Virus genome (UHGV): UHGV-0111899
Strand: one strand, 5' to 3'
Length of the DNA: 23,450 nucleotides
Origin: a virus
The notes under the pieces were generated by a model, which made no database searches, was not told the origin of the DNA, and saw nothing but the letters and a program-made list of their open reading frames with translations. Every line of letters starts with the position of its first letter. Position 1 is the stretch's first letter. Made by a program: the position numbers and the translations under genes. Shown here piece by piece: positions 13,698-17,402 of the stretch.

Positions 13698-15053
<1,356 letters not shown>

Positions 15054-15093
15054 TCCCCACCTCAATCTCGATAACCAAAAAACAAACTATTTT

Positions 15094-15183
15094 CCGTTTA
15101 AAAACAATGGAGTTTGTTTTTCATGCCCCTTTTTTACAATATCTCTTGTTTACAACATACAATCTTTCTTGTAATTTTAAGCC
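15094..15183 (+). promoter_or_regulatory. 434-type left operators OL and promoter pL
   Basis: ACAA-N6-TTGT sites at 15094-15107, 15136-15149 and 15159-15172; putative -35 TTTACA (15149-15154), 17-nt spacer, -10 TAATTT (15172-15177). Transcript start near 15184, where sequence becomes the recalled lambda pL leader (ATCAGCAGGACGCACTGACC...). Confidence 0.65.
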
Positions 15184-15217
15184 ATCAGCAGGACGCACTG
15201 ACCACCATTGAAGGTGA

Positions 15218-15248
15218 TGCTCTTAAAAATTAAGCCCTGAAGAAGGGC
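15218..15248 (+). promoter_or_regulatory. nutL (boxA TGCTCTTAAAAATTAA, boxB GCCCTGAAGAAGGGC)
   Basis: Exact match to recalled lambda nutL boxA/boxB in the pL leader. Confidence 0.8.
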
Positions 15249-15406
15249 AGCATTCAAAGCAGAAGGCTTTGGGGTGTGTGATACGAAACGAAGCATTGGC
15301 CAGAAGTGCGAATCCGGATTAGCTGCAAATGAGCCAATCGTGGGGTGTTTTCGTTCAGGACTACGACTCACACACACCACCAAAGCTAACTGACAAGAGA
15401 ATCCAG

Positions 15407-15730
15407 ATGGATGCACAAACACGCCGCCGCGAACGTCGCGCAGAGAAACAGGCTCAATGGAAAGCAGCAAATCCCCTGTTGGTTGGGGTAAGCGCAAAAC
15501 CAGTTAACCGCCCTATTCTCTCGCTGAATCGCAAACCGAAATCACGAGTAGAAAGCGCACTGAATCCGATAGACCTTACGGTGCTGGCTGAATACCACGA
15601 ACAGATTGAAAGCAACCTGCAACGTATTGAGCGCAAGAATCATCGATTTTGGTATAGCAAGCCAAGTGAGTTCGGTATAACTTGTCAAGGAAGACAAAAG
15701 GTTAAAGGGAAATCCATTCCATTGGCATGA
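15407..15730 (+). CDS. N: antitermination protein N
   Basis: From the ATG at 15407, MDAQTRRRERRAEKQAQWKAANPLLVGVSAKPVNRPILSLNRKPKSRVESALNPIDLTVLAEYH... matches recalled lambda N (Arg-rich boxB-binding motif at the N-terminus). Confidence 0.9.
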   Translation: MDAQTRRRERRAEKQAQWKAANPLLVGVSAKPVNRPILSLNRKPKSRVESALNPIDLTVLAEYHEQIESNLQRIERKNHRFWYSKPSEFGITCQGRQKVKGKSIPLA

Positions 15731-15738
15731 GGTACGTA

Positions 15739-16608
15739 ATGAAGAAAATTGATTACAAGTCCATACCAAAACCAATAGACTCAGCATCAGAGCGAAAAAA
15801 ACACAAAAAAGAGGCTGAAAAATTAGCAAATTATATCAGTTTTATTAGAAACAATGCTCACGGCGATGGCGACAGGAAGTTGCTTTCAGATGCCCGGACC
15901 CAAGCGTTCAGTATACTTCGTAAGCAGATGCAATATCGTCTTCATCCAGGCTACATAATTGAAATTCGCCCGACTGAAAGACAATTGTTCTTATTAAACT
16001 CTGTCTTTGACTTTATAAACGTAGTTGGAGATCTTATCGACAGGTCTGTAGATAAGGCTCCTGATACAAATAGTTTTCTTCTAACAAATAAAGAATACTT
16101 ATATGGTAAATTTGGTATAAACGGATGGCAAAAATATGTACGATTCTTACGTGCATTCGTTGATGCGTATAAAAATTCCGACATGATTTATACATATTTG
16201 CCTGGTGGTGATAATTGTACGCTTTCGGCAGACAATAGAATATTCATACCTATACTTGGTCTTGGGCTGATTAATGCAGTAAATGAAAGAGATGTTATAA
16301 TTGTTAAGCAGTGGCGAAAGCATGAGGGATATAGATATCTGCCATGCTTTGATATATTAAAAATACAGAATAAATTCTATGTAAAAATTAAATATAAAGA
16401 AGATGTTTTCTTCCTCAGAAAAAACAAAGATCTTTTACAAGAACTTTCTGGGACAATAGATGTCATCGTAGGTTCTAGGTTTATAAAAGAACTGAAAGAA
16501 AGCAGGTCTTTCTCTCGTGTAGAGATAAGCGAGTCAGAGTTATGGGGTATATCAAATAATCCTGTAAACCACGCTCACCAACGAAATCCAAACAAAAAGT
16601 GGTCATAA
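15739..16608 (+). CDS. hypothetical protein, AT-rich orphan gene in the pL operon at the lambda ral/sieB position (candidate defence or counter-defence factor)
   Basis: 289-aa ORF from the ATG at 15739 with GAGGT SD 5 nt upstream (an alternative ATG at 15727 overlaps the N stop). Strongly Lys/Asn/Ile/Tyr-rich; by eye about one-third GC against roughly half in flanking genes. No recognised motif. Confidence 0.7.
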   Translation: MKKIDYKSIPKPIDSASERKKHKKEAEKLANYISFIRNNAHGDGDRKLLSDARTQAFSILRKQMQYRLHPGYIIEIRPTERQLFLLNSVFDFINVVGDLIDRSVDKAPDTNSFLLTNKEYLYGKFGINGWQKYVRFLRAFVDAYKNSDMIYTYLPGGDNCTLSADNRIFIPILGLGLINAVNERDVIIVKQWRKHEGYRYLPCFDILKIQNKFYVKIKYKEDVFFLRKNKDLLQELSGTIDVIVGSRFIKELKESRSFSRVEISESELWGISNNPVNHAHQRNPNKKWS

Positions 16609-16796
16609 CCCGCTCAGGCGGCTTTCATTTTCACGCAAACAACAGAATAAACACTGCACTGTGTATTCATTCCAACGAGTGAATACACGGAGCAATGTCG
16701 CTCGTAACTAAACAGGAGTCGACTTGTTCTGATTATTGGAAATCTTCTTTGCCCTCCAGTGTGAAGGCGATTTTTTATCTATGAGGATATGAATAG

Positions 16797-17165
16797 ATGT
16801 CAAACATCAAAAAATACATCATTGATTACGACTGGAAAGCATCAATAGAAATTGAAATCGACCATGACGTAATGACAGAGGAAAAACTTCACCAGATTAA
16901 TAATTTCTGGTCAGACTCTGAATACCGACTCAATAAACACGGCTCTGTATTAAATGCTGTATTAATCATGCTGGCGCAACATGCTCTGCTTATAGCAATT
17001 TCAAGCGACTTAAATGCATATGGTGTTGTGTGTGAGTTCGACTGGAATGATGGAAATGGTCAGGAAGGATGGCCTCCAATGGATGGTAGCGAAGGAATAA
17101 GAATTACCGATATCGATACATCAGGAATATTTGATTCAGATGATATGACTATCAAGGCCGCCTGA
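16797..17165 (+). CDS. Ea10-like early protein
   Basis: 122-aa ORF with GAGGA SD; size and position upstream of cIII match lambda ea10, and the sequence resembles my recollection of it, though I cannot verify residue-level identity. Confidence 0.65.
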   Translation: MSNIKKYIIDYDWKASIEIEIDHDVMTEEKLHQINNFWSDSEYRLNKHGSVLNAVLIMLAQHALLIAISSDLNAYGVVCEFDWNDGNGQEGWPPMDGSEGIRITDIDTSGIFDSDDMTIKAA

Positions 17166-17237
17166 GTGCGGCTTTACCGCATACCAATAACGCTTCACTC
17201 GAGGCGTTTTTCGTTATGTATAAATAAGGAGCACACC

Positions 17238-17402
17238 ATGCAATATGCCATTGCAGGGTGGCCTGTTGCTGGCTGCCCTTCCGAATCTTTACTTGAACGA
17301 ATCACCCGTAAATTACGTGACGGATGGAAACGCCTTATCGACATACTTAATCAGCCAGGAGTCCCAAAAAATGGATCAAACACTTATGGCTATCCAGACT
17401 AA
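17238..17402 (+). CDS. cIII: CIII (FtsH inhibitor protecting CII)
   Basis: Translation [54 protein letters not shown] matches recalled lambda CIII (54 aa); AAGGAG SD upstream. Confidence 0.9.
   Translation: MQYAIAGWPVAGCPSESLLERITRKLRDGWKRLIDILNQPGVPKNGSNTYGYPD

What the first reader, a model, noticed from the sequence alone, without database searches (positions are those of the whole stretch)
15727..16608. AT-rich orphan gene replaces the ral/sieB accessory module immediately downstream of N
In lambda the interval between N and ea10 carries ral (restriction alleviation) and sieB (superinfection exclusion). Here that interval holds a single 289-aa ORF whose composition is visibly foreign (Lys/Asn/Ile/Tyr-rich, about one-third GC by eye against roughly half in neighbours), a hallmark of horizontally acquired defence or counter-defence cargo. 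It is tightly coupled to N (its SD lies over the N stop), so it would be expressed at the very start of infection or induction. I recognise no catalytic motif or family, which makes it the strongest candidate here for an uncharacterised function.
Basis: partly seen in the sequence, partly recalled or inferred. Interest (0 to 1): 0.75.

Follow-up and report, generated by a model that had tools for sequence, protein, structure and literature searches.

The report
Large protein carrying Nun's polymerase-arrest tail
The AT-rich gene after N is real and is the phage 434 gene; it encodes a folded 289-residue protein ending in the same short peptide that phage HK022 Nun uses to jam E. coli RNA polymerase, so it is probably a polymerase-arresting factor with a new, possibly TnpB-like, targeting domain.

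Summary
A 289-aa ORF (start 15739; 293 aa from 15727) is translationally coupled to N. It is 34.7% GC against 48.1% for the window, and it sits where lambda has ral/sieB.

It is not an orphan. It is 98% identical to phage 434 gene CPT_434_48, annotated 'Nun C-terminal peptide-containing protein'. It belongs to phrog_12139 and occurs in 94 of 5426 complete E. coli genomes.

Its last 14 residues (VNHAHQRNPNKKWS) are identical to the RNA-polymerase-arrest peptide of HK022 Nun. In homologs only 36-49% identical overall, V-N-H-A-H-x-R-x3-K-K-W stays invariant, is encoded with different synonymous codons, and follows a 12-residue linker of fixed length. The tail is therefore under selection.

The same tail ends many short Nun-like proteins with different arginine-rich heads. 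These occupy the same slot: pL, nutL, N, gene, terminator.

A sister family shares the core, carries a different conserved tail (GGLPSLGKRR) and lies between brxC and pglX in BREX operons.

Best reading: a Nun-type transcription-arrest factor with a novel targeting domain. Its target is unknown, and I found no experimental study of it.

The parts
15234..15248 (+). nutL boxB hairpin (GCCCTGAAGAAGGGC) in the pL leader, upstream of N
   Evidence: Read from the sequence. It corresponds to the nutL stem-loop annotated in phage 434. The terminator scan also flagged it as a hairpin. Its identity to lambda nutL boxB rests on my own knowledge.
15407..15730 (+). N antiterminator gene (lambda-type ARM MDAQTRRRERRAEKQAQWKAAN). 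Its stop codon overlaps the ribosome-binding site of the gene under study.
   Evidence: Pfam N36, E 2.9e-26. 434 annotation. 92% DNA identity to lambda N.
15729..15732 (+). Shine-Dalgarno GAGG for the 289-aa ORF, overlapping the N stop TGA (15728-15730)
   Evidence: Sequence. Ribosome-binding site annotated at the same place in phage 434.
15739..16608 (+). The whole gene: 289-aa protein with a Nun-type tail (phage 434 CPT_434_48 homolog, phrog_12139)
15766..15933 (+). N-terminal helical hairpin (residues ~10-65). Its first helix is basic (SERKKHKKEAEK). It is found only in the Nun-tailed prophage family, not in the sister family.
   Evidence: AF2 helices 16-38 and 43-65, pLDDT 88-97. Alignment A2.
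15946..16413 (+). Core domain (residues ~70-225): a beta strand, a helical bundle, then a beta-barrel-like region. It is shared with the BREX-associated sister family and resembles TnpB/Cas12 WED-REC.
16456..16527 (+). C-terminal helix plus the conserved S(R/K)SFSRVEI element (residues 240-263), also shared with the sister family
16528..16563 (+). 12-residue linker (SESELWGISNNP). Its sequence is variable but its length is invariant across the family. Predicted to be disordered.
   Evidence: Mean pairwise identity 0.29; length 12 in 7 of 7 distinct members. pLDDT below 50 for residues 261-281.
16564..16608 (+). Nun-type arrest tail VNHAHQRNPNKKWS plus the stop codon. It starts at the left edge of the DNA segment shared with the HK022 nun 3' end.
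   Evidence: 14/14 identity to Nun. Only PDB hit is 6ALG_N. DNA is 95.6% identical to HK022 from 16563. Invariant across diverged homologs with synonymous codon changes.
16610..16631 (+). Weak terminator-like hairpin directly after the stop (CCGC-TCAG-GCGG-CTTTCATTTT). Diverged homologs have a strong canonical terminator at this position.
   Evidence: Sequences. Tally. The consensus scan did not call it because the stem has only 4 bp.
16749..16778 (+). Terminator annotated in phage 434 upstream of ea10 (the lambda tL1 position). It closes the N-independent immediate-early unit.
   Evidence: 434 'terminator' feature at L001 5023-5052, mapped with offset 11726. The region is 99% identical to lambda. 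The tL1 assignment rests on my own knowledge.

Best explanation
The gene encodes a Nun-type transcription-arrest factor with a swapped targeting module.

Expression (inferred). The gene is transcribed from pL together with N, before the first terminator. It is therefore made at the very start of infection or induction.

Anatomy (from the sequence and the predicted model). The protein has four parts:
- an N-terminal helical hairpin whose first helix is basic;
- a ~155-residue core that most resembles the WED-REC nucleic-acid-recognition part of TnpB/Cas12;
- a helix followed by a 12-residue flexible linker;
- the 14-residue Nun tail at the extreme C-terminus.

Mechanism (inferred from the tail and from published work on Nun). 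The body docks on, or near, an elongating E. coli RNA polymerase, or on the nucleic acid emerging from it. [quoted passage not shown] It cross-links polymerase to the nucleic acids and blocks translocation, as Nun residues 96-109 do.

Likely role (the least certain step). The protein stops transcription complexes that are not the phage's own. These could belong to competing lambdoid phages, to co-induced prophages, or to the host. The phage's own N-modified complexes would be spared because the C-terminal part of N occupies the same route into the polymerase.
For: The tail matches the functional part of Nun:
- The last 14 residues are identical to Nun 96-109. The only PDB match of the last 40 residues is Nun in the arrested complex, 6ALG_N, E 1.8e-5.
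- Kang et al. 2017 (PMC5386594) report that only Nun 87-109 is seen in the complex and that it 'contains all known determinants'. N97, H98, H100, R102, K106, K107 and W108 make the contacts. The C-terminal carboxylate pairs with R102. Nun lacking its last 13 residues is inactive and does not bind polymerase.

The tail is under selection:
- In homologs 36-49% identical overall, V, N, H, A, H, R, K, K, W are invariant.
- N103, which Kang et al. found dispensable, is among the positions that vary.
- Invariant residues use different synonymous codons.
- Mean pairwise identity is 0.83 in the tail against 0.29 in the linker, whose length is fixed at 12.
- In a back-translated motif scan, nearly all matches lie at the extreme C-terminus.

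The tail behaves as a module:
- It also ends 79-123-aa proteins with diverse arginine-rich heads.
- These and the long family share one slot. An N gene lies directly upstream (gap 1-22 nt where measured) in 12 of 13 long-family loci with enough flank and in 16 short ones. A terminator lies directly downstream in most.
- In L005 the gene replaces N as the first gene after the repressor, as nun does in HK022.

The body looks like a folded nucleic-acid-binding domain:
- AF2 mean pLDDT is 82.7 and the tail is disordered.

Self-immunity is plausible from the literature:
- put-modified polymerase reads through Nun-dependent signals (PMC8632103).
- Nun overproduction is toxic without nut sites (PMC4496710).
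Against: - No experiment on this protein was found. Arrest activity is inferred only from the peptide.
- Nun residues H93 and R94 are not conserved here (the sequence is ...SNNPVNH). In Nun they contact the -10 base pair, and R94A strongly lowers binding.
- The window's tail DNA is 95.6% identical to HK022. In this particular genome the tail could be a recent recombination product. Only the diverged homologs show selection.
- pL is repressed in a lysogen and no separate promoter was found (5 promoter-like sites against 5.3 expected by chance). A Nun-like role in prophage-mediated exclusion is therefore not obviously possible.
- 434-type phages use lambda-type N and boxB, so the target cannot be lambda nut. 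What the target is remains unknown.
- The TnpB resemblance is not statistically secure (Foldseek E >= 0.01, TM-score <= 0.29; hhalign probability 2%).
- The N-terminal basic helix has no conserved ARM signature.
Confidence: 0.6

Rival explanations
1. General host shut-off rather than specific exclusion. The protein uses the Nun tail to arrest any unmodified host elongation complex early in infection. That would free resources for N- and Q-modified phage transcription. The body only raises affinity for polymerase.
For: - The gene is co-expressed with N as an immediate-early gene, and no lysogenic promoter was found.
- It is linked to N genes of several ARM types. That fits protection through N's polymerase-binding part better than through RNA specificity.
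- Nun itself is toxic without nut sites when overproduced (PMC4496710).
- The residues that give Nun part of its polymerase affinity (R94) are missing, so the body may supply the affinity.
Against: - L005 has the gene but no N.
- Lambdoid phages depend on host polymerase for their own early and late transcription, and they are not known for host transcription shut-off (my own knowledge).
- A ~155-residue TnpB-like nucleic-acid-binding core is more than a simple affinity anchor would need.
Confidence: 0.2
2. The tail is a passenger. The conserved tail-plus-terminator DNA is a recombination joint of lambdoid mosaics, and the ORF merely reads into it. The body then has an unrelated role, such as a nucleic-acid-binding regulator or an anti-restriction function replacing ral.
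For: - A DNA mosaic joint lies exactly at 16563, with 95.6% identity to the HK022 nun 3' end and its downstream DNA.
- The same terminator follows many tail-bearing genes.
- The gene sits where lambda has ral/sieB.
Against: - In members 36-49% identical the tail is kept at the protein level with synonymous codon differences.
- The positions that vary include N103, shown dispensable in Nun.
- The linker length is fixed at 12 residues.
- The reading frame and the exact C-terminal end are preserved in every member.
A neutral read-through would not keep these features.
Confidence: 0.1
3. Counter-defence by mimicry. The body is a phage copy of a BREX-associated host protein, and it interferes with BREX or a related defence. 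The Nun tail would be secondary.
For: - The sister family lies between brxC and pglX in several independent BREX operons, and it occurs in other defence-island-like neighbourhoods.
- The region downstream of N carries anti-restriction (ral) in lambda.
Against: - Identity to the sister family is only ~20-26%.
- The sister family has a different tail and lacks the N-terminal hairpin.
- There is no PADLOC hit.
- This reading does not explain why the Nun tail is under selection.
Confidence: 0.07
4. An RNA-guided factor of the TldR type. The TnpB-like body binds a guide RNA and directs the arrest tail to complementary DNA or RNA.
For: - The fold resembles TnpB/Cas12 WED-REC.
- TldRs show that TnpB derivatives become prophage-encoded transcription regulators (PMC10705468).
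Against: - There is no RuvC or zinc-finger remnant, although these help bind the guide scaffold in TnpB.
- Only a terminator follows the gene, and no other downstream sequence is conserved.
- In BREX loci the flanking gaps are 22-34 nt.
- Rfam finds nothing near the gene.
- Sequence similarity to TnpB is not significant.
Confidence: 0.03

Closest known systems
HK022 Nun transcription termination factor (P18683; structure 6ALG)
   Same: - The C-terminal 14 residues are identical and sit at the extreme C-terminus. They include N97, H98, H100, R102, K106, K107 and W108.
- The genomic slot is the same: the first or second gene of the pL operon, followed by a terminator.
- The DNA of the 3' end and the downstream region is shared.
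   Different: - 289 aa with a confidently folded body, against 109-112 aa and intrinsically disordered.
- No canonical arginine-rich boxB-binding motif.
- H93 and R94 are not conserved.
- Coupled to a lambda-type N, so lambda nut cannot be the target.
- Expression in lysogens is not evident.
Phage 434 CPT_434_48, 'Nun C-terminal peptide-containing protein' (UMO75312.1, OL657226)
   Same: It is the same gene: 98.0% DNA and 96.9% protein identity, with identical neighbours cI434, hex, N and ea10.
   Different: That record only notes BLASTp similarity to Nun. I found no functional or family-level analysis in the searchable literature.
Short Nun-like proteins with other arginine-rich heads (lambda-N-type, 21/P22-N-type), found here in IMG/VR and Enterobacterales genomes
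   Same: Same tail, the same N-coupled slot and the same downstream terminator.
   Different: They are 79-123 aa, with an ARM head where this protein has a folded ~260-residue body.
TnpB / Cas12 and the nuclease-dead derivatives TldR
   Same: - The family motif I-x-L-x-P-x3-Q-x3-L-x3-F aligns in register with the TnpB N-terminus.
- TldRs are also prophage-borne transcription regulators.
   Different: - No RuvC or zinc-finger domain, not even a degraded one.
- No adjacent guide RNA.
- Sequence similarity is not significant.
- The proposed effector here is a polymerase-arrest peptide, not a DNA-bound roadblock.
Lambda N C-terminal region
   Same: [quoted passage not shown] It is encoded immediately upstream of this gene.
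   Different: - Its effect is the opposite (antitermination).
- It has no sequence similarity to the tail.

Membership tests
Nun-type transcription arrest factors (HK022 Nun, phrog_5632) | C-terminal arrest peptide with N97, H98, H100, R102, K106, K107 and W108, ending at or one residue after W | tested here: met
   14/14 identity. PHROG hit E 4.3e-5. PDB hit 6ALG_N E 1.8e-5. Invariant in diverged homologs.
Nun-type transcription arrest factors (HK022 Nun, phrog_5632) | Residues H93 and R94, which contact the upstream -10 base pair | tested here: not met
   The corresponding residues are N and N/P (...ISNNPVNH). They are not conserved in the long family.
Nun-type transcription arrest factors (HK022 Nun, phrog_5632) | N-terminal arginine-rich motif that binds boxB RNA | tested here: inconclusive
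   A basic helix is present at residues ~16-30 (SERKKHKKEAEK; SDSRRRKADKK in L097). It has no conserved ARM signature, and the aromatic position is not conserved.
Nun-type transcription arrest factors (HK022 Nun, phrog_5632) | Small (~110 aa), largely disordered protein | tested here: not met
   289 aa. AF2 mean pLDDT 82.7, with residues 10-225 near 90.
Nun-type transcription arrest factors (HK022 Nun, phrog_5632) | pL-proximal gene (first, or second after N) followed by a terminator | tested here: met
Nun-type transcription arrest factors (HK022 Nun, phrog_5632) | Blocks RNA polymerase translocation; relieved by rpoC R322H, D264G and D329G | not testable with these tools
   This needs biochemistry or genetics.
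TnpB / Cas12 / TldR | WED-REC fold | tested here: inconclusive
   [not shown]
TnpB / Cas12 / TldR | RuvC domain (intact or degraded DED) and a zinc-finger/TNB domain | tested here: not met
   The protein ends about 60 residues after the beta-barrel. No Pfam OrfB or RuvC hit in any of the 23 members.
TnpB / Cas12 / TldR | Guide RNA encoded adjacent to the gene | tested here: not met
   Only a terminator is conserved downstream. No Rfam hit near the gene. Gaps of 22-34 nt in BREX loci. An RNA lying inside the coding sequence was not tested.
Lambda Ral / SieB (the genes it replaces) | Sequence homology to Ral or SieB | tested here: not met
   No Pfam or PHROG hit to either. There is no DNA homology to lambda between 15721 and 16636.
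Known anti-phage defence proteins (PADLOC-DB 2.0) | Match to any defence-system model | tested here: not met
   0 families for the window protein and for the sister proteins.
phrog_12139 (unknown function) | Full-length match to the family profile | tested here: met
   E 1.4e-203 over 289/289 positions.

The most novel reading that the evidence does not exclude
The body is a radically reduced TnpB-derived WED-REC nucleic-acid-recognition module. It has been exapted as a carrier for short effector peptides.
- In lambdoid prophages it delivers the Nun polymerase brake to particular transcription complexes, as an immediate-early weapon between co-resident phages.
- In BREX operons the same scaffold carries a different conserved peptide (GGLPSLGKRR) that plugs into another machine.
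If true, this would be a new class of 'scaffold plus plug-in peptide' regulators, and a new link between BREX and transcription or another core machine.
Probability: 0.22. Interest if true: 0.9.

Novelty: new variant of a known kind. Interest (0 to 1): 0.72.

Why it matters
Nun is the textbook case of a phage protein that stops RNA polymerase by inserting a peptide into the enzyme. It has been treated as a one-off that acts only on lambda.

Two things here change that picture. First, the arrest peptide is a portable module attached to many different targeting heads. Second, phage 434, a classic laboratory phage, and about 2% of complete E. coli genomes carry a version with a large folded head that is co-expressed with N. 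Transcription arrest may therefore be a common, diversifying weapon in competition among lambdoid prophages, or a host-takeover device.

The protein is small and its mechanism is directly testable with existing Nun assays and Nun-resistant rpoC alleles. The possible TnpB ancestry of the head, and the sister family inside BREX operons, open two further questions about how defence and transcription machinery are connected.

Tried and rejected
- Family scans. Pfam, PADLOC and NCBIfam gave nothing for the window protein or its relatives.
- Unavailable or failed tools. The afdb50 fold library was not available. The search for related loci with the 23-sequence alignment failed for lack of a conserved stretch. 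The 2026 TldR preprint could not be fetched.
- ARM idea. I first thought the N-terminal 'KKHKKEAEKLANY' mimics the lambda N ARM 'RRERRAEKQAQW'. This was rejected as a defining feature, because the aromatic residue and the AEK motif are not conserved in homologs.
- TnpB by sequence. hhalign against ISDra2 TnpB (my recalled sequence was verified against the PDB) gave only 2% probability. The TnpB link is therefore not claimed as homology.
- Separate promoter. The scan is at chance level.
- Adjacent structured RNA. Rfam finds only the cIII thermoregulator further downstream. Downstream regions of diverged loci share only the terminator.
- Sister-family tail. The GGLPSLGKRR peptide has no match in PDB sequences. 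A PDB profile search with the whole family found nothing.
- Literature. Searches for a description of the 434 gene, or of 'Nun-like' proteins, found nothing relevant.
Full report
**1. The observation**

The ORF at 15727..16608 (+) is real. It is 293 aa from the first ATG and 289 aa from the ATG at 15739.

The start at 15739 is the better one. GAGG at 15729-15732 lies 6 nt upstream of it and overlaps the N stop codon TGA at 15728-15730. Homologs also begin at the equivalent Met, and phage 434 is annotated that way.

The body is 34.7% GC (GC3 29.9%). The window is 48.1% and N is 47.8%. The body is the lowest-GC stretch of its length in the window; 0.13% of equal-length windows are as low.

Homology to lambda stops at 15720 and resumes at 16637. 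Lambda has ral and sieB in that interval.

**2. Identity of the locus**

The window is an imm434-type lambdoid. Positions 15000-17300 are 97.7% identical to phage 434 (OL657226). The order of features is cI434, hex, OL/pL, nutL, N, this gene, a terminator, ea10, cIII, kil, gam, bet.

In that record the gene is CPT_434_48, 'Nun C-terminal peptide-containing protein', with a note of BLASTp similarity to HK022 Nun. The gene matches phrog_12139 over its full length (E 1.4e-203). Its last 20 residues match the C-terminus of phrog_5632, 'Nun-like transcription termination factor'.

The gene occurs in 94 of 5426 complete E. coli genomes, always on the chromosome and nearly always next to 'antitermination protein N'.

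Pfam, PADLOC and NCBIfam give nothing. I found no paper on the gene.

**3. The tail**

The last 14 residues, VNHAHQRNPNKKWS, are identical to the C-terminus of Nun. My recalled Nun sequence was verified at 100% against HK022. The only PDB sequence that matches the last 40 residues is Nun in the arrested elongation complex, 6ALG_N, E 1.8e-5, aligned end to end.

Kang et al. 2017 (PMC5386594) report the following:
- Only Nun residues 87-109 are ordered in the complex, and they hold all known determinants of arrest.
- N97, H98 and H100 contact the RNA, the template strand and the beta' rudder.
- R102 pairs with the C-terminal carboxylate.
- K106, K107 and W108 sit in a pocket next to the rudder.
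- N103 is dispensable.
- Nun lacking its last 13 residues is inactive and does not bind polymerase.

At the DNA level, window 16563-16675 is 95.6% identical to the HK022 nun 3' end and the DNA after it. Window 16667-16778 matches HK022 DNA on the far side of its IS903 insertion. In this genome the tail therefore lies on a mosaic segment, and taken alone it could be a recombination accident.

**4. The tail is under selection**

Database searches found diverged full-length homologs at 68%, 49%, 42% and about 36% identity. A motif scan found more (L080, L097, L124).

In all of them V-N-H-A-H-x-R-x3-K-K-W is invariant, followed by S-stop or by stop directly. The variable positions include N103. 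The invariant residues are written with different synonymous codons, for example V as GTA/GTT/GTG, A as GCT/GCG/GCC/GCA, and R as CGA/AGA.

Mean pairwise identity is 0.83 in the tail and 0.29 in the preceding linker. The linker is nevertheless exactly 12 residues long in all seven distinct members.

This is the pattern expected for a peptide that must reach a fixed site from a docked body. A neutral read-through into a shared joint would not produce it.

Two Nun residues are not conserved here: H93 and R94, which contact the -10 base pair. R94A mainly lowers binding. The body may supply that lost affinity; this is an inference.

**5. The tail is a portable module in a fixed slot**

Nearly all matches lie at the extreme C-terminus of an ORF.

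The 65 distinct ORFs fall into two architectures:
- Proteins of 79-123 aa with diverse arginine-rich heads: HK022-Nun type, lambda-N type (MDAQARRREKRKEKQEEW) and 21/P22-N-like (NSKNRRYKERGELIAKRK).
- The ~290-aa family of the window.

Both architectures use the same slot:
- An N gene lies directly upstream (gap 1-22 nt where measured) in 12 of 13 long-family loci with enough flank and in 16 short loci.
- A canonical intrinsic terminator (CCCGC-loop-GCGGG-T run) follows within a few bases in most.
- In L105 and L108 a lambda-type N is followed by a Nun-like protein with a different ARM. That is what heterotypic exclusion would need.
- In L005 the long gene is the first gene after the repressor, with no room for N, as nun is in HK022.

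In the window the proximal hairpin is weak (CCGC-TCAG-GCGG-CTTTCATTTT). The terminator annotated in 434 lies at 16749-16778. Either way the gene belongs to the N-independent immediate-early transcript. No separate promoter stands out.

**6. The body**

With 5 sequences the model was poor. With 23 sequences it is confident: mean pLDDT 82.7, pTM 0.72, residues 10-225 near 90, and residues 261-281 below 50. The predicted elements are:
- a helical hairpin (helices 16-38 and 43-65);
- a strand (72-77);
- a helical bundle (80-145);
- a beta-rich region with one helix (152-217);
- a helix (240-258);
- the disordered linker and tail.

Foldseek also ranks Cas12 structures in its top eight, but no hit reaches E 0.001 and TM-scores are 0.15-0.29. 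SmpB and HIRAN beta-barrels follow.

hhalign against verified ISDra2 TnpB aligns 'IIEIRPTERQLFLLNSVF' with 'FVVRLYPNAAQTELINRTL'. That is the register the fold predicts, but the probability is only 2%.

The topology (strand, helical insertion, beta-barrel) fits the WED-REC part of TnpB; that comparison rests on my own knowledge of TnpB. There is no RuvC or zinc-finger part, and no member hits a TnpB Pfam model.

I treat 'TnpB-like WED-REC nucleic-acid-binding core' as a moderate lead. TldRs are the known TnpB-derived transcription regulators. They keep a degraded RuvC and use an adjacent guide RNA (PMC10705468). I found no sign of a guide RNA here.

**7. Sister family**

A profile search of 1.84 billion representatives found 27 proteins. 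Beyond the prophage family, these are proteins of ~210-330 aa (one of 473 aa). They share the core and the S-x-x-(Y/F)-S-R-V-D-F element. They lack the N-terminal hairpin. They end in a different conserved peptide, (W/R)xVxGGLPSLGK(R/H)R.

They have no annotation, and the tail has no PDB match.

In three independent sets of contigs the gene lies between brxC and pglX, in the order brxA, brxB, brxC, X, pglX. PADLOC confirms the flanking genes. Other members sit next to NYN/OST-HTH, RelA_SpoT, PLD and MZB genes, or next to helicases.

The distance from the SRV(D/E) element to the C-terminus is similar in both families, about 24-26 residues. This suggests one scaffold with interchangeable C-terminal peptides; that is an inference.

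**8. Mechanism and its limits**

What is shown:
- the tail's identity to Nun and the selection acting on it;
- its position at the extreme C-terminus;
- the genomic slot;
- the folded body with a disordered tail.

What is inferred from published Nun work:
- The tail enters the cleft and blocks translocation.

What is only proposed:
- The body docks on the elongation complex or on emerging nucleic acid and sets specificity.
- N-modified complexes of the phage itself are spared. [quoted passage not shown]

The target cannot be lambda-type nut, because the phage uses it itself (boxB at 15234-15248). Whether the protein excludes competing or co-induced lambdoid phages, or shuts down host transcription, is open. 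Nun overproduction is toxic without nut sites (PMC4496710), so a general effect is possible.

**9. Verdict**

It is not an orphan. It is a large-bodied member of a wider set of proteins that carry the Nun arrest peptide. It is already flagged by annotation in phage 434, but I found no study of it.

I rate it a new variant of a known kind. My confidence that it acts through Nun-type polymerase arrest is about 0.6.

Noticed in passing
L135 7001-7831, L137 7001-7867, L138 4390-5256, L140 7001-7867 (sister-family genes): A sister family shares the core domain but ends in GGLPSLGK(R/H)R. It lies between brxC and pglX in BREX operons, and it matches no PADLOC, Pfam or NCBIfam model. Downstream of pglX in L135, L137 and L138 come genes of 376 aa and 423 aa and an HSP70-like gene, rather than an obvious pglZ within the fetched flank.
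   Followed up: partly
L037, L040, L051, L052, L092 (88-aa ORFs); L030 3494-3758: Proteins of 88 aa begin with a lambda-N-type ARM (MDAQARRREKRKEKQEEWK...NP) and end with the Nun tail. They look like N-head/Nun-tail hybrids and would be expected to target lambda-type boxB.
   Followed up: partly
L030 (minus strand), ORFs at 3494-3758 and 3823-4060 in reverse-complement coordinates: Two different tail-bearing short ORFs lie in tandem in one prophage. One has a lambda-N-like head; the other has no evident ARM.
   Followed up: no
L105, L108 (and L039, L061, L018): In L105 and L108 a lambda-type N gene is followed, after a 7-nt gap, by a 97-aa Nun-like protein whose ARM resembles the phage 21 N type (NSKNRRYKERGELIAKRK). 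The arrest factor is thus heterotypic to its own N. L039, L061 and L018 carry proteins with the same ARM type.
   Followed up: partly
L036 7398-8226, L064 (minus strand); P0002, P0042: Some E. coli copies of the gene have an altered or truncated N-terminus. They are 226 aa from the first ATG, with the N gene ~196-198 nt upstream instead of overlapping. Partial genes are also deposited. These are possibly decaying alleles.
   Followed up: no
L002 2978-3901 (HK022): The IS903 insertion just downstream of nun in HK022 splits DNA that is contiguous in the window: 16563-16675 and 16667-16778 match the two sides of the insertion.
   Followed up: yes
window 17225-17283: The lambda cIII thermoregulator RNA element (Rfam RF01804) is present, 88.5 bits, E 1.1e-21.
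   Followed up: yes
window 14649-15053 and 15060-15130: The hex gene (protects the repressor; noted in the 434 record) follows cI434. An A/T-rich hairpin with a T run (AAACAAACT...AGTTTGTTTTT) lies between hex and OL/pL. It could terminate pRM transcripts before N and this gene.
   Followed up: no
L004 7727-7999, L097, L080, L124 (N genes upstream of long-family members): The N proteins next to diverged long-family genes combine lambda-like or other ARMs with a P22-N-like C-terminus (...CCLPQVAIFSVKTKKKDSITARA). The long family is therefore linked to N proteins with at least two kinds of polymerase-binding end.
   Followed up: no
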